A stretch of 54,738 nucleotides of DNA from Candidatus Woesearchaeota archaeon. GTDB lineage: Archaea; Nanobdellota; Nanobdellia; SCGC-AAA011-G17; PNOQ01. Of the stretch, positions 1 to 42,829 are shown in pieces (position 1 is the first letter of the stretch; every line of letters begins with the position of its first letter). The notes under the pieces were generated by a model. It saw only the letters and a program-made list of their open reading frames with translations, did not search any database and had not been told where the DNA came from. Location of the stretch: contig CAYYFK010000003.1 of assembly GCA_964471565.1 (NCBI GenBank), forward strand, positions 1 through 54,738. Direction: 5' to 3'. Position numbers and translations under genes: made by a program.

Positions 1-2
1 TA

Positions 3-464
3 GATTTCTATGGTGTTGGAAATGATGAATGTGGTTTTGATAGCGATTGTTCTGCTGAGATTTATTGTGGTAATGATATTGTTAATGAAAATGAAGAATG
101 TGATGGTTTAAATCTAGGTGGCGAAAGTTGTTCTAGTTTAGGTTATGATTCAGGGGTATTGGCGTGTCTTGATAATTGTAGTTTTGATATTGATGGATGT
201 GTTAATGTTCCTTGCGGCGATGGAGTTGTTAATGAAAATGAAGAATGTGATGGTTTAAATCTGGGTGATGAAAGCTGTCTTAGTCTAGGTTATCAAAAAG
301 GTAATTTGAGTTGCTTTTCTGATTGTAAATTTAATATCTTAGAGTGTAAAAAAGATGTTCTTAATAAACCTAATTTTTATATTGTTGGAGGTATTCTAAT
401 TTTTATCCTTTTTGTGTTGATTATTTTTTCTCGCTTTTTTTATGATAAATTCAAAAAAACATAA
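3..464 (+). CDS. Cys-rich repeat membrane-anchored surface protein, 5'-truncated by the window edge
   Basis: The frame of ORF 159..464 is open back to nt 3 (DFYGVGNDECGF...). Two 49-aa repeats CGxxxVNENEECDGLNLGxESCxSLGY, then a C-terminal TM helix and basic tail. Confidence 0.75.
   Translation, partial: DFYGVGNDECGFDSDCSAEIYCGNDIVNENEECDGLNLGGESCSSLGYDSGVLACLDNCSFDIDGCVNVPCGDGVVNENEECDGLNLGDESCLSLGYQKGNLSCFSDCKFNILECKKDVLNKPNFYIVGGILIFILFVLIIFSRFFYDKFKKT
81..262 (+). repeat. 35-nt identical intragenic direct repeat (81-115 and 228-262), 147-nt period
   Basis: GTTAATGAAAATGAAGAATGTGATGGTTTAAATCT occurs twice in frame. Confidence 0.9.
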
Positions 465-710: not shown

Positions 711-748
711 CTTGTCACCTTGCCATGCACGGACAGATTGTTTATAAA
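711..748 (+). promoter_or_regulatory. 21-nt conserved element (711-731), 9-nt spacer and TATA box (741-748) upstream of LAGLIDADG gene 1
   Basis: CTTGTCACCTTGCCATGCACG-N9-TTTATAAA; same arrangement on the minus strand at 42829-42792. Confidence 0.8.
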
Positions 749-769: not shown

Positions 770-1687
770 ATGGAATTTAATCTCTATGATATGTGCTCTG
801 ATGATAATGTGGTGCGTATTGCTATGGGTGATGAATTGAGATCTAAATTTAATTATTCTGTAAGTAGATTGAGGTTAAAAAGAAAGTTTATTTCGGATAG
901 TTTTGGTTTTGATTATAGTTCTGTTTGTAGATGGTTGAAAAACCATAAGTTTGTCCCGTTGAAATTGTTCAAGCTGTTGAAAGAAGTATATTTTCTTGAT
1001 TTCTCTAATCATATGAAATATTTTGTTGGTTGCTCAAATTCTAGGAAAATAAAAATACCTAAAAAATTAAATGAAAATTTAGCAAAAGTTATTGGTGCAC
1101 ATGTTGCGGATGGTTGCCTTAAGAAGAGAGTTTCACAAAGTAAGAATGGGAGATATATGAGATATGAATTGGTTTTGAGAGAGCAGTATTATTCCCATGT
1201 TGATTCATTTTGTAGATGGTTTAATGATTGTTTTGATTATGGAATAAGACCGATTGATAGGGGGAATCATTTTGAAGTGTATATTGGTAGTAGAGTTATA
1301 TTTGAATATTTTAATAAAATTTTAAAGATTCCTTATGGCCCGAAATCTGCAACCATAAGAGTTCCAGATTACATTAAGAATTCTAATTATAATATTAAAG
1401 TTGCCTTTTTAATGGGAATTTTTATGTTTGATGGATCTGTTGAGAGAAAAACAGGTTATGTAAGTTTGGTTTCGAGAAGTGAAAAATTAGTAAAAGGATT
1501 GTACAAATTATTGGAAGATATTGGCATCGTCCCAGATTACATTAACAAAAAGCCAGACAAATATAAGAGACATAGGTTGATAATAAGAAAGCAAGCTAAA
1601 TTGAAAGAATGCTTAACTTTATTTGAAAAAGATACTGAGAAATGGGAGAGATTGTATAAATTTTTAAAATTAAAACACAAGCTTTAA
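770..1687 (+). CDS. Free-standing double-motif LAGLIDADG endonuclease-family protein with N-terminal HTH-like region (305 aa)
   Basis: Motifs LAKVIGAHVADG and FLMGIFMFDG with both acidic residues present; ATG 770 lies 21 nt after the TATA box and is preferred over TTG 698. No intein splicing motifs seen. Confidence 0.85.
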   Translation: MEFNLYDMCSDDNVVRIAMGDELRSKFNYSVSRLRLKRKFISDSFGFDYSSVCRWLKNHKFVPLKLFKLLKEVYFLDFSNHMKYFVGCSNSRKIKIPKKLNENLAKVIGAHVADGCLKKRVSQSKNGRYMRYELVLREQYYSHVDSFCRWFNDCFDYGIRPIDRGNHFEVYIGSRVIFEYFNKILKIPYGPKSATIRVPDYIKNSNYNIKVAFLMGIFMFDGSVERKTGYVSLVSRSEKLVKGLYKLLEDIGIVPDYINKKPDKYKRHRLIIRKQAKLKECLTLFEKDTEKWERLYKFLKLKHKL

Positions 1688-1736: not shown

Positions 1737-3933
1737 ATGGCTGAAAAATCGACAGAAATTATAGGGAAAATTATGACGCAGCCTGAGAAGATCAGAAATA
1801 TTGCCATCGCCGCACATTACGATTTCAGTTAAGGCTGTTCGTGTGCAGATCGACCATGGTAAGACCACATTTTCTGATAATCTCTTAGCTGGTGCTGGAA
1901 TGCTTTCTGAAGAGCTTGCTGGTGAACAAAGAGCTTTAGACTTTCATGATGATGAATCTGAGAGAGGAATTACTATAGACTCTGCTTCCGTTTCTATGCT
2001 TCACACTGTTGATGATACTGATCACTTAATTAATTTAATTGACACTCCAGGACATGTTGATTTTGGAGGAGATGTTACAAGAGCTATGAGGGCGGTTGAT
2101 GGTGCAGTTGTTTTATGTTGTGCTGTCGAAGGCATTATGCCACAAACTGAGACTGTTTTAAAACAAGCTTTGAGAGAAAGAGTTAAGCCGGTTTTATTTA
2201 TTAATAAAGTTGATAGGTTAATCAAAGAAGTTAAGTTAACTCCTGAAGCTATGCAGCAAAAGTTTGTTGATATCATTACCCATATTAATAAATATATTGA
2301 GCAAATTGCTCCTGAAGAATTTAAGGAAAAATGGAAAGTTAATATTCAGGATGGATCTGTTGCTTTTGGTTCAGCGTTCCATAACTGGGGGATTTCTTTG
2401 CCTTATATGCAAAAGAAAAATATTTCTTTCAAAGATATAATTGATGCTTATGAAAATGAAACTTACAAAGAATTAGCTAAAAAAGCGCCAATTCATGAAG
2501 TTGTTCTAGATATGACTATCAAACATCATCCAAATCCTTTAATTGCACAAAAATATAGAATTCCTAAAATTTGGCATGGGGATATTGAAAGTGTAGAAGG
2601 TAAGGCACTATCTAATTGTGATCCTAAGGGTGGAGTTGGTTTGATTGTTACTAAAATTGTTGTAGATAAACACGCTGGAGAGGTTGCAACTGGTCGTTTG
2701 TTTTCTGGAACTGTTAGACAAGGCGATGAAGTTTATCTTAATATGGCTAAGAAAAAAGTTAGATTACAACAAGTTTCTGTTTACAAAGGTTCACAAAGAA
2801 CTATGATGGAAGAAATCCCGTGCGGAAATATTGTTGGTTTGGTTGGTTTGAGAGATACTTTTGCGGGAGAAACTGTTTCTACAGAGCCCATGACCCCTTT
2901 TGAAGAAATTAAACATATTTTTGAGCCTGTTATTACTAAATCTATTGAAGCTTTGAAGGCTGCTGACTTGTCCAGATTAATTGAAGTTTTAAGACAAGTT
3001 GGAAAAGAAGACCCAAGTATTAAGGTTGAAATTAATGAAGAAACTGGAGAGAATTTAATCTCTGGAATGGGCGAATTACATTTAGAAATTATTGAGAATA
3101 GAATTAAAAATGAAAAAGGTTTGGAAGTTAAGACTTCTCCACCGATTGTTGTTTATAGGGAAACAGTTACTAAACAAGGTACTGAAGAAGAGGGTAAAAG
3201 TCCTAACAAACACAATAAATTCTATATAGTTGTAGAACCTTTGGAAGATAATATTTACGAGGCAATAAAATCTGGAGAATTATCTGAAGGAAGAGTAAAG
3301 AAAAAAGATAGAGTTGTTATAGATAAGTTAGTTGAATTAGGTTTAAATTCAAAAGATTCTCAAAGATATAGGTATTTTTACAAAGGAAATGCTCTTGTTG
3401 ATGATACAAGGGGAATTGTTCATATAGGAGAAGTTATTGAAATGATTATGGATGGTTTTCAACAAGTTATCAATGCAGGTCCATTGGCTAGAGAGCCTTG
3501 TGCTAAGATGAGGGTAAGAATTATGGATATGAAGCTTCATGAAGATGCAATTCATAGAGGTCCTGCTCAAGTTTACCCGGCAATTAGAGAATCTATTAAA
3601 GGCAGTATGGCAACTGCAGGTTCAAGTATCCTGGAACCTATTCAAGTTATGCAATTTGATAGTCCTTCTGAGTTTTTGGGAAATTTAAGTGGTATGATTC
3701 AGAACAAAAGAGGACAATTAATTAATGTTGATCAACAAGGCGAACATATTTCTGTTAAAGCTAAATTGCCTGTGGCTGAAATGTTTGGAATTGCTTCTGA
3801 ATTGAGATCGGTTACTTCTGGTCGTGGTAGTCAGTATTTAGTTGACCAAATGTTTGAAACTTTACCTACTAATTTGAAGGATGATGTTATCAAGAAAATT
3901 AGAAGTCGTAAAGGTTTAGGCGAGAATGAGTGA
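1737..3933 (+). CDS. fusA: Archaeal elongation factor EF-2, join(1737..1817,1849..3933), 721 aa after splicing
   Basis: Exon 1 MAEKSTEIIGKIMTQPEKIRNIAIAAH joins exon 2 IDHGKTTFSDN to restore G1; DTPGHVDF, NKVD and the diphthamide loop DAIHRGPAQV are present. Confidence 0.95.
1818..1848 (+). other. 31-nt BHB-type intron in EF-2 mRNA
   Basis: Central helix GCAC(1812-15)/GTGC(1843-46), 3-nt bulges ATT(1816-18) and AGA(1847-49), inner helix ACGA/TCGT. Cutting after the 2nd nt of each bulge gives exactly the junction that restores AAH-IDHGKT. Confidence 0.9.
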
Positions 3934-3992: not shown

Positions 3993-4502
3993 ATGACTAT
4001 AGAATTAAAGTTAGGTAAATTTTATACGTATAGTGAACTTGGAGATGGTAGTAGAGTTAGAGAGGGTGGTTCCGGAGGACATTCTTATAAAACTGTTGCA
4101 GATAGAACAAGCAATCCAGAGTTAGCTAAAAGAGTTATGGGTAGAATAAATGAAAGATTATCTGAATTTGGTCAAGGAGACTTTCAATCTTTTTCGGATG
4201 AAAAAAAAGATGAAATATTAGAAAGAGATCTTAGAATTATTGTTGATTCCCCTGCAAAAATTGAGTTAAAATTCAGAAGAAGAGTATCTTGTGAGGGTTA
4301 TGATTTTAATGAGATAATGGGGGAAGCATTATTTATGTTTTATTGGAGTAAAAATTACAATGAGAACCTTAGGCTTTCAATACAAGATCTAAGTAAAGAA
4401 GATTTACCATCATTTAGCTCAAAAAAGGAATCTGAATTTGGATGGATACCCGGTCCAAATATGTATGGATTGATTTTAAAATATAACTTTGATATTGAGT
4501 AG
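3993..4502 (+). CDS. Hypothetical protein
   Basis: 169-aa ORF with its own TTTATAA box, located between EF-2 and EF-1alpha. Confidence 0.7.
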   Translation: MTIELKLGKFYTYSELGDGSRVREGGSGGHSYKTVADRTSNPELAKRVMGRINERLSEFGQGDFQSFSDEKKDEILERDLRIIVDSPAKIELKFRRRVSCEGYDFNEIMGEALFMFYWSKNYNENLRLSIQDLSKEDLPSFSSKKESEFGWIPGPNMYGLILKYNFDIE

Positions 4503-8341: not shown

Positions 8342-8481
8342 GCCGGGATCGCATAATCTGGTATTGCACAGAACCTTAAAATGTAATAAATTTAAGGTGT
8401 GTAAGCCTGGAATTTAATTTCAGAAACATGCCAGTTAGCCTGACCCTTCGGGGTGTCTGGGTTCAAATCCCAGTCCCGGCG
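8342..8481 (+). tRNA. tRNA-Ser(GGA) with two introns: 8372-8404 (position 29/30, 33 nt) and 8413-8436 (37/38, 24 nt)
   Basis: Acceptor GCCGGGA/TCCCGGC, G73, long variable arm, TTCAAAT T-loop. Removing both BHB introns gives anticodon arm CAGGC-CTGGAAA-GCCTG; the body is near-identical to tRNA-Ser(GCT) at 34884. Confidence 0.9.
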
Positions 8482-10094: not shown

Positions 10095-10966
10095 TTGAAT
10101 GGTATGTTCTTGCATTGATTTCGGCTCTATTTTCAGCTAGTGCTGCAATCTTTGAAAAAAAAATATTATTCAAAGAAAAAGCTTTAGCGTTTTCTACTGC
10201 CTTGGCAATATTTAATTTAGTTTTAGCTATTCCTTTTTTCTTTTTTATAGATATGTCTAGTGTCTCTTCAATTAGTTTGCTTGTTTTATTTTTTAAATCG
10301 ATCCTTGGAGCTTTTGCGTTTCTTTGTGTAATGTTGGGTATTAAAAATTTGGAGATTAGTAATGCTTTGCCTTTGCTTGTTTTGACTCCAGGTTTTGTTG
10401 CTTTTTTTGCATTTATTTTTCTAAAAGAAGTATTATCTGGAATTGAACTAATTGGAATGCTATTGTTGTTGGGAGGAACATATATTTTACAACTTAAGTT
10501 AAATCAAAGATTTTTGGACCCCTTTAGAATTTTTTGGAAATCAAAAGGACATAAGTATATAATTTGGGCGTTGATTTTATTTACAATAACTTCTATTCTT
10601 GATAAGGCCCTTCTTAAGACTTTTAAACTTCCTGTAAATGCGTTTATGGGTTTTCAACATTTATTTTTAGCTATTGTTTTTATTGCGGTAGTTTTATTCA
10701 GTGGAAAAATTAGAGATGTAGCTAATCCCTTAAAGAACTCTTGGAAATGGATACTCCCATTGGCTTTTTTGACAATTACTTATAGGTACACACAGATAGA
10801 AGCTGTAAAGGCTGCTTCTGTTGCTTTGGTTTTGTCATTAAAAAGAGTCTCGGTTTTCTTTGCCGTACTAATTGGGGGAAGTTTGTTTAAAGACCATAGT
10901 CTTTTGAGAAGAGTTTTGGCAACTGCAGTAATGATTCTTGGTGCAGTATTTATTATAACTGGCTAA
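10091..10966 (+). CDS. EamA/DMT-family transporter
   Basis: Two repeated multi-TM halves; likely start MIEWYV at 10091 overlapping the ferredoxin stop. Confidence 0.85.
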   Translation: MIEWYVLALISALFSASAAIFEKKILFKEKALAFSTALAIFNLVLAIPFFFFIDMSSVSSISLLVLFFKSILGAFAFLCVMLGIKNLEISNALPLLVLTPGFVAFFAFIFLKEVLSGIELIGMLLLLGGTYILQLKLNQRFLDPFRIFWKSKGHKYIIWALILFTITSILDKALLKTFKLPVNAFMGFQHLFLAIVFIAVVLFSGKIRDVANPLKNSWKWILPLAFLTITYRYTQIEAVKAASVALVLSLKRVSVFFAVLIGGSLFKDHSLLRRVLATAVMILGAVFIITG

Positions 10967-41767: not shown

Positions 41768-41793
41768 ATATGAGAATTTTGTTTAACTTTTGT

Positions 41794-41890
41794 GCGAGCG
41801 TAGTTTAGTGGTAGAATTCGACGTTGCCATTGATAAATTTATTTATTAAGCAAAAACGTCGTGACCCGGGTTCGACCCCCGGCGCTCGCA
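41794..41890 (+). tRNA. tRNA-Gly(GCC) with a 26-nt intron at 37/38 (41830-41855)
   Basis: GCGAGCG/CGCTCGC, anticodon arm CGACG-TTGCCA|A-CGTCG, BHB central helix TTGC/GCAA. Confidence 0.93.
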
Positions 41891-42769
41891 TATATTTTTT
41901 ATTAATTTGTTTGTTGGTATTCTTCCATGTTTAGACCATATCTTGAATTTTAGATTATTTTTAAAATTACTAAATCCTATCTTATTATAATATTCTACTG
42001 CTTCTTTTCCAAAGAGATACAAACAATAATTATCATTGTTTTTTCCTATCCTTGGGTTATAACCCAAATGTTCCAGTGCTTTTTTTAGTGAATCTATCAA
42101 ACTTATTTGACTATTAAAAAATATTATTTGTAAATTTGTTTTGTGGTGCCTGTATAACCCCCCATCAGTATCAAAGAGTCCTCTAATGCAGGGAATTAAA
42201 AGAGTACTTTCGTGTAATATCATCTCAGGTATTGATGAATTTTTCTTCTTCCCGAGTTTTAGATTAAATTGTTTTTGTATGTAATTCACTATGTCTCTAG
42301 AATATACCCTACATTGCACACCATTTGACTTTTTGAAATAATATATGCTTGAAGTTTTGTCAAATAAAAACTTAATTAGGTTTGGTATGTATTTGGTTAT
42401 ATATCTTAGGTCTATTTTGCCACAAGTGATTATCAATCCATTTTGATTTATATGTCCATCACCTAAATATATGCCAATTAGTTCAGCAAGCTCTGGAGAA
42501 ATAAACTCTGGAATTTTTATATTTGAATTATTTATCGGTCTTTTCTCAGATATATGTTCATCAAAAGCGGTTGGATTAACATTTATTAAATTACATAATT
42601 CTTGAAATATTGATTCTCGCATACTACAATTCTCTTTGTATAAATGATTTACCATGCTTTTTGAGATATTCAATAATCCTGCTAATTCAATCCATTTTAG
42701 TCCTGTTTTTGTTCTTATTACTTCTAAAAATTCTTTCTGTTTTTCTTTTTTGAAAATTATGTATTCCAT
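41846..42769 (-). CDS. Free-standing double-motif LAGLIDADG endonuclease-family protein with N-terminal HTH (307 aa)
   Basis: LAELIGIYLGDG and IRGLFDTDG; ATG 42769 lies 22 nt after the TATA box; the 3' end runs antisense through tRNA-Gly. Confidence 0.85.
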   Translation of the reverse strand: MEYIIFKKEKQKEFLEVIRTKTGLKWIELAGLLNISKSMVNHLYKENCSMRESIFQELCNLINVNPTAFDEHISEKRPINNSNIKIPEFISPELAELIGIYLGDGHINQNGLIITCGKIDLRYITKYIPNLIKFLFDKTSSIYYFKKSNGVQCRVYSRDIVNYIQKQFNLKLGKKKNSSIPEMILHESTLLIPCIRGLFDTDGGLYRHHKTNLQIIFFNSQISLIDSLKKALEHLGYNPRIGKNNDNYCLYLFGKEAVEYYNKIGFSNFKNNLKFKIWSKHGRIPTNKLIKNICERRGSNPGHDVFA

Positions 42770-42791: not shown

Positions 42792-42829
42792 TTTATAAAT
42801 TCTGTTTGCGTGCGTGGCAAGGTGACAAG
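42792..42829 (-). promoter_or_regulatory. 21-nt conserved element (42829-42809), 9-nt spacer and TATA box upstream of LAGLIDADG gene 2
   Basis: Minus strand CTTGTCACCTTGCCACGCACG-N9-TTTATAAA; 20/21 identical to 711-731. Confidence 0.8.

What the first reader, a model, noticed from the sequence alone, without database searches (positions are those of the whole stretch)
711..748. Same 21-nt element at fixed distance from the TATA box of two distant, divergent LAGLIDADG genes
Seen in sequence: + strand 711-748 CTTGTCACCTTGCCATGCACG-GACAGATTG-TTTATAAA then ATGGAAT after 21 nt; - strand 42829-42792 CTTGTCACCTTGCCACGCACG-CAAACAGAA-TTTATAAA then ATGGAAT after 22 nt. 20/21 identity, GC-rich in an AT-rich genome, identical 9-nt spacer, and I found no other copy in the window. 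The two proteins (305 and 307 aa) are only weakly similar by eye, so the DNA element is far more conserved than the genes. Inference: a selected cis-element of an HTH-LAGLIDADG element family, such as an operator or activator site upstream of the BRE, or the conserved left end of a small mobile unit.
Basis: partly seen in the sequence, partly recalled or inferred. Interest (0 to 1): 0.85.

Follow-up and report, generated by a model that had tools for sequence, protein, structure and literature searches.

The report
Shared promoter element of a Woesearchaeota DNA-metabolism regulon
The 21-base element is real. It is a fixed-position promoter signal that a group of uncultivated Woesearchaeota place in front of many homing-endonuclease-like genes and also DNA repair and replication genes, so it marks a shared regulatory circuit rather than a feature private to one endonuclease family.

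Summary
CTTGTCACCTTGCCA[T/C]GCACG occurs exactly twice in the window (711-731 +, 42829-42809 -). Each copy lies 9 nt before TTTATAAA and 29-30 nt before a leaderless ATG of two LAGLIDADG genes that are 24% identical.

The element is non-coding. It consists of two CTTGYCA direct repeats 8 bp apart plus nnCACG, and the second repeat ends 17 nt before TATAA.

Collection scans and unbiased rescans of about 0.5 Mb of related DNA found about 40 distinct copies. Every copy has the same orientation and phase, immediately upstream of a BRE-like stretch and TATA box. They occur only in Woesearchaeota/Nanoarchaeia-type DNA.

The genes downstream are mostly LAGLIDADG ORFs of several subfamilies. Others are Hef, an Lhr-type helicase, RFC small subunit, a C5 DNA methylase, a PIN protein, Zn-ribbon nuclease-like proteins, and a small protein followed by a metallophosphoesterase. 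Hef orthologues fetched by protein similarity keep the core down to 63% identity.

Best reading: the binding site of an unidentified regulator, probably an activator placed like the GvpE UAS, that controls a DNA-transaction regulon into which endonuclease genes are wired.

The family-specific and mobile-end readings are not supported.

Side finding: the adjacent aEF-2 gene carries a 31-nt bulge-helix-bulge mini-intron.

The parts
711..731 (+). Upstream promoter element, copy A: direct repeats CTTGTCA (711-717) and CTTGCCA (719-725), then TG-CACG (726-731)
732..740 (+). 9-nt purine-rich spacer in the position of a BRE (TFB recognition element)
   Evidence: column counts of 31 sites, (A at +24 and +26 in 25/31 and 29/31 sites)
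741..748 (+). TATA box TTTATAAA, first base 29 nt before the ATG. This is the window-wide leaderless promoter geometry.
770..1687 (+). Gene A: 305-aa protein with an N-terminal helical (HTH-like) domain and a two-domain LAGLIDADG (I-DmoI-like) core. The acidic residue of both LAGLIDADG motifs is invariant among orthologues. It lies directly upstream of aEF-2 in all relatives.
42809..42829 (-). Upstream promoter element, copy B: CTTGTCA (42829-42823), CTTGCCA (42821-42815), CG-CACG (42814-42809)
42800..42808 (-). 9-nt BRE-position spacer CAAACAGAA
42792..42799 (-). TATA box TTTATAAA, first base 30 nt before the ATG
41846..42769 (-). Gene B: 307-aa HTH plus two-domain LAGLIDADG protein. The last ~15 codons run antisense into the tRNA-Gly gene, and the last 10 residues are disordered in the model.
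41793..41891 (+). tRNA-Gly(GCC) gene with an anticodon-loop intron (ARAGORN calls it Asn/att because of the intron). It is convergent with gene B and overlaps its 3' end. The same linkage is seen in the B orthologues L008 and L010.
1737..3933 (+). aEF-2 gene immediately downstream of gene A, interrupted at 1818-1848 by a 31-nt bulge-helix-bulge-type mini-intron inside the P-loop codons (AAH|IDHGKT). This is context, not part of the promoter element.

Best explanation
The 21-nt sequence is a fixed-position upstream promoter element, the binding site of a sequence-specific trans-acting factor that is still unidentified. It sits immediately upstream of the BRE/TATA core promoter. Consensus: CTTGYCA-n-CTTGYCA-YR-CACG. 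The conserved core is the proximal repeat plus nnCAC, and the proximal repeat ends 17 bp before TATAA. With TSS about equal to the ATG, the element spans about -59 to -39. It is shared by a clade-specific regulon of a subgroup of Woesearchaeota. The regulon contains host DNA-transaction genes (Hef, Lhr-type helicase, RFC small subunit, C5 DNA methylase, and a small protein followed by a metallophosphoesterase gene) and a large number of homing-endonuclease-like genes (LAGLIDADG of several subfamilies, and Zn-ribbon nuclease-like proteins). The two window copies are nearly identical because both are near-consensus sites for the same factor, not because of duplication or a shared mobile end. Inferred mechanism (not shown): the factor binds the CTTGYCA repeat(s) on the same helical face as TBP/TFB, about 22 bp centre to centre, and helps or gates TFB/TBP recruitment. 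This is activator-like and resembles the GvpE UAS, which is 20 nt long, has two 8-nt portions, abuts the BRE and depends strictly on distance. One repeat suffices at Hef and RFC. Two repeats are typical of the endonuclease and small-protein promoters and may raise occupancy. The endonuclease genes have plugged into this circuit and so would be co-expressed with the DNA replication and repair machinery. Shown: sequence, phase, orientation, taxonomic restriction, gene set, phylogenetic footprints. Inferred: protein binding, the sign of regulation, the physiological signal.
For: (1) Two copies only in the window, 0 expected; nothing else in the two loci is conserved. (2) Orthologous promoters keep it. 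Gene A orthologues at about 50% aa identity have CTTGTCAGCTTGTCACACACGG (L004) or GCTTGCCAACCACGG/CACAG (L001, L007). Gene B orthologues at 55-57% have CTTGACATCTTGTCACGG (L008) or CTTGTCATGCTTGCCAAACGCG (L010). (3) A genome-collection scan with a pattern expected to hit about once by chance gave 17 hits in Woesearchaeota/Nanoarchaeia MAGs, 3-4 per MAG in three of them. The other 13 were one orthologous Bradyrhizobium locus (10 species) and three other bacterial contigs. A metagenome scan gave 26 hits, all on contigs of 28-38% G+C. (4) Rescans without any TATA requirement: the core CTTG[TCA]CAnnC[AG]C[GA] occurs at 39 distinct places in 474 kb of related archaeal DNA. All are in the same orientation, with TATAA 17 nt downstream (19 nt in L001 and L007, and none elsewhere). 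Of 42 CTTGNCA-N17-TATAW sites, 41 carry nnCAC. (5) Unconstrained positions are also conserved: CG at +15/16 in 25/31 sites, A at +37 in 31/31, and purine-rich BRE-position columns. (6) Downstream genes by Pfam: DEAD+ERCC4 (Hef), DEAD/Helicase_C (Lhr-type), DNA_methylase, PIN, LAGLIDADG_2/_3, Metallophos; RFC by sequence. (7) Test independent of the motif: Hef orthologues fetched by protein similarity keep CTTGCCA-nn-CAC exactly 17 nt before TATAA at 84%, 67% and 63% identity in a conserved gene neighbourhood, and lose it at 57%. The variant GCTTGCCAACCACRG is shared by gene A promoters (L001, L007) and a Hef promoter (L093). (8) TATA 29-30 nt before the ATG is the dominant promoter geometry of the window: 10 of 26 T[T/A]TATAA occurrences within 80 nt upstream of ORFs. 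(9) Architectural precedent: the GvpE UAS (PMC2241852).
Against: No binding protein is identified and no expression data were available, so 'bound by a regulator' and 'activator' are inferences from position only. The gene set was partly collected with a pattern that required a TATA box, although relieve this bias. Only 54.7 kb of the window's own genome is available, so the regulon in this organism is extrapolated from relatives. 8-bp-spaced direct repeats put two protomers on different helical faces, which is unusual for dimeric regulators. The functional theme (DNA transactions) rests on about 10 non-endonuclease promoters.
Confidence: 0.7

Rival explanations
1. Promoter-class element read by a specialised general transcription factor (a TFB or TBP paralogue). 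It would act like an extended BRE or a sigma-type '-35' that defines a promoter class, rather than as the site of a separate activator or repressor.
For: The distance to the TATA box is strictly fixed: 17 bp in nearly all of about 40 sites. It directly abuts the BRE-position bases. It has a single orientation. The geometry TTGYCA-N17-TATAA is formally that of a sigma-70 -35/-10 pair. Haloarchaeal TFB/TBP paralogues directing promoter classes are a precedent (PMC2396416, listed; abstract only).
Against: No TFB/TBP paralogue was looked for or linked to the motif. The element reaches 30 bp upstream of the TATA box, further than known TFB-DNA contacts. The optional second repeat looks like an additional binding unit.
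Confidence: 0.13
2. Autoregulatory operator recognised by the HTH-LAGLIDADG proteins themselves. This would resemble I-TevI autorepression at an operator that mimics its homing site, or WhiA, a LAGLIDADG-derived regulator. One conserved member, for example gene A, might act as the regulator of all sites.
For: The element is about 21 bp, the size of a LAGLIDADG target. About half of the motif-bearing promoters drive LAGLIDADG genes. Gene A is a syntenic, vertically inherited gene whose promoter always carries the element. Gene A has an extra N-terminal helical domain, and long relatives add a C-terminal winged-helix-like extension, an architecture reminiscent of WhiA. The I-TevI precedent is in PMC2988022. 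The A family has at least 22 clusters at E<=1e-30, so it is not too rare to be a clade-wide factor.
Against: The same element precedes Hef, Lhr, RFC, a methylase and a PIN gene. The LAGLIDADG proteins behind it are very diverse: 24% identity between A and B, the LAGLIDADG_2 and _3 subfamilies, with and without HTH. They cannot all read one 21-mer. The site is built of direct repeats, not the pseudo-palindrome expected for LAGLIDADG half-sites. It lies upstream of BRE/TATA rather than over them. It has no significant similarity to the candidate homing sites, the EF-2 exon junction and the tRNA-Gly anticodon arm (best 13/22; 97 of 2000 shuffles do as well). Both LAGLIDADG acidic residues are invariant, unlike WhiA as I recall it.
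Confidence: 0.09
3. Conserved end, or portable promoter cassette, of a small mobile endonuclease unit. The element would be copied together with the gene during homing or transposition.
For: Gene B relatives sit in different gene neighbourhoods. Many motif-bearing genes are selfish-looking nucleases. A shared promoter-plus-leader module (…ACTACTTTTAACACCTCC…) precedes two different nuclease families.
Against: There is no second (terminal) copy near either gene at up to 3 mismatches. Similarity stops at the TATA box and ATG. Gene A and Hef are syntenic, vertically inherited genes that keep the element. Host genes such as RFC and Lhr carry it.
Confidence: 0.04
4. A bacterial-type sigma-70 promoter (-35 TTGCCA, 17-bp spacer, -10 TATAAA) carried by horizontally acquired endonuclease genes.
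For: The geometry matches. The loose pattern retrieved genuine phage and bacterial sigma-70 promoters. Distant homologues of gene B occur in CPR bacteria (P0038).
Against: The organism is archaeal: aEF-2, aEF-1alpha, intron-bearing tRNAs, and Woesearchaeota homologues. The TATA-to-ATG distance is the archaeal leaderless geometry used across the window. Conservation extends beyond a -35 hexamer, to nnCACG and the BRE-position purines. Archaea-specific Hef carries it.
Confidence: 0.02

Closest known systems
GvpE-responsive UAS of haloarchaeal gas-vesicle promoters (PMC2241852)
   Same: An element of about 20 nt made of two conserved ~8-nt portions. It lies directly upstream of the BRE and has a strict distance requirement to BRE/TATA. 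It can sit between divergent promoters, as copy B does.
   Different: Unrelated sequence. The GvpE UAS controls one gene cluster and its activator is known. Here about 40 promoters of many gene families share the element, the factor is unknown, and activation is untested.
Archaeal DNA-damage regulon of Sulfolobales controlled by Orc1-2 through a short promoter motif (PMC6061795, abstract seen)
   Same: A lineage-specific promoter motif that ties together DNA-transaction genes in an archaeon.
   Different: Different phylum and motif. No Orc1/Cdc6 link was tested here. Whether the Woesearchaeota regulon responds to damage, replication or something else is unknown.
I-TevI autorepression at an operator resembling its homing site (PMC2988022)
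   Same: A conserved DNA site in the promoter region of a homing-endonuclease gene.
   Different: The I-TevI operator overlaps the promoter, mimics the homing site (15/20) and is private to the gene. Here the site lies upstream of BRE/TATA, shows no significant similarity to the candidate homing sites, and is shared with non-endonuclease genes.
I-DmoI and other monomeric two-domain LAGLIDADG homing endonucleases (for proteins A and B, not for the element)
   Same: The fold of the C-terminal ~200 aa of A matches I-DmoI (Foldseek TM 0.72-0.75 normalised to target, E about 1e-9). There are two LAGLIDADG motifs with conserved Asp.
   Different: A and B are free-standing, not intron- or intein-encoded. 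They carry an extra N-terminal HTH-like domain. Gene A is syntenic rather than visibly mobile.
Mobile or selfish genes wired into a host stress regulon (e.g. SOS/LexA-controlled integrases and colicins in bacteria; from my own knowledge, not checked here)
   Same: Selfish nuclease genes share a host regulator's binding site with DNA-repair genes.
   Different: Archaeal promoter architecture, and an unknown regulator and signal.

Membership tests
Archaeal upstream activating sequence adjacent to BRE (GvpE-UAS type) | Located immediately upstream of BRE/TATA of an archaeal promoter | tested here: met
   The element ends 9 nt before the TATA box. TATA is 29-30 nt before a leaderless ATG, which is the window-wide geometry.
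Archaeal upstream activating sequence adjacent to BRE (GvpE-UAS type) | Fixed distance and orientation relative to BRE/TATA | tested here: met
   All 39 core occurrences in 474 kb lie in one orientation, with 17 nt (19 in two cases) between the repeat and TATAA.
Archaeal upstream activating sequence adjacent to BRE (GvpE-UAS type) | Bipartite or repeated recognition portions | tested here: met
   Two CTTGYCA repeats with an 8-bp (rarely 9-bp) period. The proximal one is obligatory and the distal one optional.
Archaeal upstream activating sequence adjacent to BRE (GvpE-UAS type) | Bound by a dedicated activator that stimulates transcription | not testable with these tools
Regulon operator (shared TF site) | Present at several unlinked promoters per genome and conserved at orthologous promoters across species | tested here: met
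   3-4 strict sites per MAG in three MAGs. Gene A, gene B and Hef orthologues keep the core.
Homing-endonuclease autorepressor operator (I-TevI type) | The operator resembles the enzyme's homing site | tested here: inconclusive
   The homing sites are unknown. Against the two candidate sites (EF-2 exon junction, intron-less tRNA-Gly anticodon arm) the best match is 13/22, reached by 97 of 2000 shuffles.
Homing-endonuclease autorepressor operator (I-TevI type) | The operator overlaps the core promoter and is private to the endonuclease gene | tested here: not met
   It lies upstream of BRE/TATA and also precedes Hef, Lhr, RFC, methylase and PIN genes.
Terminal repeat or end of a mobile element | A second copy (direct or inverted) at the other end, with insertion boundaries at the element | tested here: not met
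   Only one copy per gene at up to 3 mismatches. Similarity ends at the ATG. Syntenic host genes carry it.
Bacterial sigma-70 promoter | -35/-10 hexamers with a 17-bp spacer | tested here: met
   TTGCCA-N17-TATAAA. The loose pattern retrieves real sigma-70 promoters in phages and bacteria.
Bacterial sigma-70 promoter | Host uses a sigma-70 RNA polymerase | tested here: not met
   Archaeal gene content (aEF-2, aEF-1alpha, tRNA introns, Hef) and Woesearchaeota relatives.
LAGLIDADG homing endonuclease, two-domain monomer (proteins A and B) | Two LAGLIDADG helices with conserved acidic residues and an I-DmoI-like fold | tested here: met
   PF14528 hits. D114 and D221 (A) and D104 and D202 (B) are invariant. 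Model pLDDT is 89 and matches I-DmoI with TM 0.72-0.75.
LAGLIDADG homing endonuclease, two-domain monomer (proteins A and B) | Site-specific cleavage, and mobility seen as presence/absence polymorphism | tested here: inconclusive
   Cleavage is not testable. Gene A is always upstream of aEF-2. Gene B flanks vary, but the linkage to tRNA-Gly(GCC) is kept. No empty sites were examined.
WhiA-type LAGLIDADG-derived regulator | Degenerate (inactive) LAGLIDADG core plus a C-terminal HTH | tested here: not met
   The acidic residues are invariant, and the extra domain of A and B is N-terminal. The Pfam WhiA model scores below its cutoff (14 bits vs 23.2). Only long A-relatives have a C-terminal extension.

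The most novel reading that the evidence does not exclude
Genes A and B are free-standing homing endonucleases, each parked within about 200 bp of an ORF-less bulge-helix-bulge intron: A next to the aEF-2 P-loop mini-intron, B next to the tRNA-Gly(GCC) intron. They would mobilise or maintain these introns by 'collaborative/trans homing'. Their expression would be timed by a Woesearchaeota replication/repair regulon through the shared upstream element. That would give a first mechanism for the spread of BHB introns, including into an essential protein-coding gene, in DPANN archaea.
Probability: 0.15. Interest if true: 0.85.

Novelty: new member of a known kind. Interest (0 to 1): 0.55.

Why it matters
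Almost nothing is known about transcription regulation in DPANN archaea, which are uncultivated. A strongly conserved ~21-bp element in fixed phase with BRE/TATA defines a computable regulon and gives a concrete bait for identifying its regulator. The regulon links Hef, Lhr, RFC and a DNA methylase with a swarm of homing-endonuclease-like genes. It also suggests that selfish nucleases in these reduced genomes are expressed together with the host replication and repair machinery. That idea can be tested in existing metatranscriptomes. The neighbouring aEF-2 mini-intron, if spliced, would extend archaeal mRNA splicing beyond the crenarchaeal cbf5 case.

Tried and rejected
1. **Loose viral scan.** The pattern CTTGWCA-N1-2-CTTGYCA-N17-TATAA on viral contigs returned only bacterial-phage sigma-70 promoters, such as the one upstream of cyanophage gp55. 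These are irrelevant, but they exposed the sigma-70-like geometry and led me to add CRCG to the pattern.
2. **Bacterial hits in the genome scan.** Ten come from one orthologous Bradyrhizobium locus and three from other bacteria. They are GC-rich or sigma-70 contexts with no LAGLIDADG gene, so I discarded them.
3. **Operator as homing-site mimic.** The motif shows no significant similarity to the EF-2 exon junction or the tRNA-Gly anticodon arm. The shared TTGCCA with the tRNA-Gly anticodon loop is forced by the anticodon and I treat it as coincidence. A remembered partial match to the I-DmoI target (CCTTGCC) was not tested and is not used.
4. **Gene A too rare to be the regulator.** The word-indexed search found only 8 relatives. 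The exhaustive search found 22 clusters at E<=1e-30, so I dropped this argument.
5. **Anti-SD hairpin in the long leader.** The leader ACTACTTTTAACACCTCC…GGAAAGGTGGT folds no better than shuffles (z = -1.6 and +0.4), so no structure is claimed.
6. **Coding explanation.** Both ORFs are open through the element, but in different frames. This reading is rejected.
7. **Literature.** Searches for LAGLIDADG plus Woesearchaeota, or for BHB introns in DPANN protein-coding genes, found nothing on this element.
Full report
**1. The observation**

Reading the window confirms every stated detail.
- On the + strand: CTTGTCACCTTGCCATGCACG at 711-731, a 9-nt spacer, TTTATAAA at 741-748 and ATG at 770.
- On the - strand: CTTGTCACCTTGCCACGCACG at 42829-42809, a 9-nt spacer, TTTATAAA at 42799-42792 and ATG at 42769.

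With up to three mismatches these are the only two copies in 54.7 kb, and none appeared in 100 dinucleotide-preserving shuffles. The downstream ORFs encode proteins of 305 and 307 aa. They are 24% identical and both match PF14528 LAGLIDADG_3.

A pairwise alignment of the two loci shows that only the element, the TATA box and ATGGAAT are shared. The long ORFs are open across the element, but the element falls in different frames relative to the two ATGs. It is therefore a non-coding signal and not the remnant of a duplication.

**2. Promoter context**

In this window the heptamer T[T/A]TATAA peaks sharply at 29-30 nt before the ATG of ORFs of at least 100 aa. That accounts for 10 of the 26 occurrences found within 80 nt upstream of such ORFs. 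This is the leaderless archaeal arrangement. Both LAGLIDADG genes fit it, at 29 and 30 nt. With the TSS roughly at the ATG, the element spans about -59 to -39, directly upstream of the purine-rich bases in the BRE position.

The window is ordinary archaeal chromosome. It encodes aEF-2, aEF-1alpha, aminoacyl-tRNA synthetases, POR and a CCA-adding enzyme, and it carries intron-bearing tRNAs. The closest protein relatives are labelled Woesearchaeota or Nanoarchaeota.

**3. Orthologous promoters**

Gene A has orthologues at about 50% identity, and every one lies directly upstream of aEF-2. Their upstream regions keep the element at the same place:
- L004: CTTGTCAGCTTGTCACACACGG.
- L001 and L007: GCTTGCCAACCACGG and GCTTGCCAACCACAG, with only the proximal repeat.

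Gene B orthologues at 55-57% identity also keep it. L008 has CTTGACATCTTGTCACGG and L010 has CTTGTCATGCTTGCCAAACGCG. More distant B homologues (L011-L014, 38-40%) lack it and instead have Shine-Dalgarno-led starts.

In the motif-bearing A and B promoters other than L001 and L007, the proximal repeat ends exactly 17 nt before TATAA. In L001 and L007 the distance is 19 nt.

**4. Collection scans**

A loose pattern run on viral contigs returned only bacterial-phage sigma-70 promoters. That showed that TTGYCA-N17-TATAA is formally a -35/-10 geometry, so I tightened the pattern.

The pattern CTTGNCA-N1-2-CTTGNCA-NN-CRCG-N11-TATAA is expected to hit about once by chance. On one genome per prokaryotic species it gave 30 hits:
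- 17 were in Woesearchaeota/Nanoarchaeia MAGs, with 3-4 per MAG in three MAGs.
- 10 were one orthologous Bradyrhizobium locus in different species.
- 3 were other bacterial contigs.

The CACG version run on metagenome contigs gave 26 hits, all on contigs of 28-38% G+C.

Across 31 distinct 8-bp-period sites, positions that the pattern did not constrain are also conserved. CG at +15/16 appears in 25 of 31 sites, A at +37 in 31 of 31, and the BRE-position columns are purine-rich.

**5. Controls for the bias of the pattern**

This gave 39 distinct occurrences against about 0.7 expected from base composition. Every one lies in the same orientation 17 nt (19 nt in L001 and L007) upstream of TATAA, and none lies inside genes or in reverse orientation.

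In the converse test on 514 kb, 41 of 42 CTTGNCA-N17-TATAW sites carry nnCAC. The one exception is the gene B orthologue L008.

The element is therefore an obligate, phase-locked part of a promoter class.

**6. What the promoters drive**

The downstream genes were classified by Pfam and by sequence.

| Class | Distinct promoters | Notes |
|---|---|---|
| LAGLIDADG ORFs | about 19 | LAGLIDADG_3 and _2, with or without N-terminal HTH, one with a C-terminal wHTH |
| Small 41-51-aa protein (…W[E/D]EF…DSEAQFW…) | 9 | followed about 130 nt downstream by a 198-aa metallophosphoesterase gene |
| Zn-ribbon nuclease-like proteins (348-363 aa) | 4 | have a long conserved leader |
| Hef (DEAD + ERCC4) | 4 | |
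| Lhr-type DEAD helicase | 2 | |
| C5 DNA methylase | 1 | |
| PIN protein | 1 | |
| RFC small subunit | 1 | single-repeat version of the element |
| 99-aa protein of unknown function | 1 | |

Among LAGLIDADG-like ORFs in the fetched loci, 15 of 19 carry the regex core, plus L008 with its variant. This sample is enriched by design.

**7. A motif-independent test**

I fetched Hef orthologues by protein similarity only and inspected their upstream regions.

| Locus | Identity to query Hef | Upstream sequence | Distance to TATAA |
|---|---|---|---|
| L092 | 84% | CTTGCCATGCACGG | 17 nt |
| L093 | 67% | GCTTGCCAACCACAG | 17 nt |
| L094 | 63% | GCTTGCCAAACACT | 17 nt |
| L095 | 57% | no element | - |

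The three motif-bearing loci share a conserved gene neighbourhood.

This is a phylogenetic footprint at a vertically inherited host gene. It shows that one repeat is enough. The flavour GCTTGCCAACCACRG is shared by the gene A promoters of L001 and L007 and the Hef promoter of L093. That is what a shared trans factor would produce.

**8. Interpretation**

The data fit a binding site for one sequence-specific factor that acts at a fixed helical phase on BRE/TATA. It would control a clade-specific regulon of DNA-transaction genes, and many endonuclease-like genes have joined that regulon.

The closest architectural precedent is the GvpE UAS of haloarchaea. That UAS is 20 nt long, consists of two conserved 8-nt portions just upstream of the BRE, and loses activation on any change of distance (PMC2241852). 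A position upstream of the BRE favours activation or recruitment over occlusion. This is an inference, and neither the factor nor the signal is known.

The near-identity of the two window copies follows from both being near-consensus sites.

**9. Rivals**

- **Specialised TFB/TBP paralogue.** A general factor reading the element as a promoter-class signal is a mechanistic variant that I cannot exclude.
- **Autoregulation by the LAGLIDADG proteins** (I-TevI-like, PMC2988022; or WhiA-like). Several results argue against it:
  - Non-endonuclease genes carry the element.
  - The endonucleases behind it are very diverse.
  - The site is built of direct repeats.
  - It lies upstream of the core promoter.
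  - It shows no similarity to the candidate homing sites.
  - The catalytic Asp residues are retained.

  A single conserved member such as gene A acting as regulator remains possible. Its family has at least 22 clusters at E<=1e-30.
- **Mobile-element end.** There is no second copy, and syntenic host genes carry the element.
- **Bacterial promoter.** This reading conflicts with the archaeal context and the leaderless geometry.

**10. The proteins**

The model of A has pLDDT 89. Its C-terminal ~200 residues match I-DmoI and intein endonuclease domains (TM 0.72-0.75 normalised to I-DmoI, E about 1e-9 to 1e-10). They are preceded by a helical domain of about 95 residues. The model of B has pLDDT 88.6, and its last 10 residues are disordered. 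Those residues are encoded antisense to the tRNA gene.

**11. Side findings**

- **aEF-2 mini-intron.** The aEF-2 gene right after gene A is split at 1818-1848 by a 31-nt insert inside the P-loop codons, AAH|IDHGKT. Relatives carry a 32-nt insert at the same site (L003) or a 30-nt insert two codons later (L007). L004 has none. The predicted folds show a 4-bp helix flanked by two 3-nt bulges. Cuts after the second bulge nucleotide restore the reading frame exactly, and the inner helix co-varies (ACGA:UCGU vs AUGA:UCAU). This is the bulge-helix-bulge signature of archaeal splicing-endonuclease introns. Among mRNAs, the example I found in the literature searched here is crenarchaeal cbf5 (PMC2738675).
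- **Gene B and tRNA-Gly.** In all three genomes examined, gene B overlaps the 3' end of a convergent tRNA-Gly(GCC). The tRNA carries an intron in two of the three.
- **A possible link.** Both window endonuclease genes therefore sit within about 200 bp of an ORF-less BHB intron site. This invites a collaborative-homing hypothesis (concept in PMC2988022). I rate it as possible but unproven. L004 has gene A without the EF-2 intron, and L010 has gene B without the tRNA intron.

**12. Verdict**

The proposed restriction to an HTH-LAGLIDADG family and the mobile-end alternative are not. It is a new, clade-specific member of a known kind of archaeal promoter element. Its interest is moderate, because it defines a regulon in an uncultivated DPANN lineage and ties selfish nucleases to replication and repair genes.

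Noticed in passing
window 1737-3933, insert at 1818-1848; L003 ~1545-1576; L007 ~4019-4048: The aEF-2 gene is interrupted inside the P-loop codons (AAH|IDHGKT) by a 31-nt insert with a stop codon and a frameshift. Relatives have 32-nt (same site) or 30-nt (two codons later) inserts, and L004 has none. RNA folds give a 4-bp helix flanked by two 3-nt bulges, with cuts that restore the frame exactly and a co-varying inner helix. This is a candidate BHB mini-intron in a protein-coding gene.
   Followed up: partly
window 41793-41891 (+) vs gene B 41846-42769 (-); L008 3886-3977; L010 3873-3947: Gene B and its orthologues always converge on a tRNA-Gly(GCC) gene and overlap its 3' end by about 45 nt, although the other flanking genes differ. 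The tRNA has an anticodon-loop intron in the window and in L008 but not in L010. ARAGORN mislabels the intron-bearing copies (Asn/att, Ala/tgc).
   Followed up: partly
window 8342-8481 (+): A 140-nt Rfam tRNA hit (35.8 bits) that ARAGORN does not call. It is presumably a tRNA with a long or non-canonical intron.
   Followed up: no
L038, L047, L056, L078, L086 (downstream of the motif): A conserved leader of about 70-90 nt (…ACTACTTTTAACACCTCC…GGAAAGGTGGT…) and a shared N-terminal peptide (MRW[S/K]xK[D/E]IE[Y/L]…) precede two different nuclease families: the Zn-ribbon 348-363-aa proteins and a 248-aa LAGLIDADG_2 protein. The predicted leader structure is no better than shuffles.
   Followed up: partly
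L039, L043, L050, L053, L062, L072, L082-L084: A conserved 41-51-aa protein (…KYVEWEEF..DSEAQFW…GVIA) with a Shine-Dalgarno site is the most frequent non-endonuclease gene behind the motif. It has no Pfam match and is always followed by a 198-aa calcineurin-like metallophosphoesterase gene.
   Followed up: partly
L074 ~10278-10660: The RFC small-subunit gene behind a single-repeat motif has an in-frame TAG where RFC proteins, as I recall them, have a conserved Tyr (…RRTMET*SNTCR…), near the contig end. This could be a sequencing error, a polymorphism or recoding.
   Followed up: no
L011 2219-3000; L013 2449-3000; L014 1799-2350: Distant gene B homologues without the motif sit behind 550-780-nt gene-free stretches. 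The last ~130 nt of these stretches, just upstream of the genes, are conserved between loci (…CACAAAAC(T)(G/C)C(C/T)AAAT…GATTTTTGGTCTT…ACACAAAAATC…). This may be an unannotated RNA or a degraded gene.
   Followed up: no
L036, L037, L041, L044, L046, L048, L049, L057, L059, L063, L064: One orthologous Bradyrhizobium locus matches the scan pattern (CTTGTCATCTTGCCAATCGCGCG…TTTATAAG). It precedes a conserved 23-codon ORF (MHMMSFVSQTVRPRS…). It looks like a bacterial promoter plus leader peptide and is unrelated to the archaeal element.
   Followed up: no
L016, L018, L020, L022, L023, L025, L030, L031, L034 (viral contigs): Phage contigs carry tandem CTTGTCAC repeats as the -35 region of a sigma-70-type promoter. 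The downstream ORF (MAKRKRSEHYVNNKEF…) looks to me like a gp55-like late sigma factor, which was not checked against any database. The contigs were retrieved only because of the shared TTGYCA-N17-TATAA geometry.
   Followed up: no
P0005-P0007 (relatives of gene A); L051 3639-4796: Long relatives of gene A (about 340-400 aa) carry a C-terminal extension of about 90 aa. A 384-aa motif-bearing LAGLIDADG protein has a C-terminal winged-helix domain by Pfam (HTH_24/HTH_5). This is a LAGLIDADG plus C-terminal HTH architecture reminiscent of WhiA, but with the acidic LAGLIDADG residues kept.
   Followed up: no
window 1-464 (+): The window starts inside a gene that encodes tandem Cys-rich modules (…NENEECDGLNLGGESCSSLGY…, repeated at about 80-140 and 225-300) and ends in a hydrophobic C-terminal segment. 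It is probably a surface protein.
   Followed up: no
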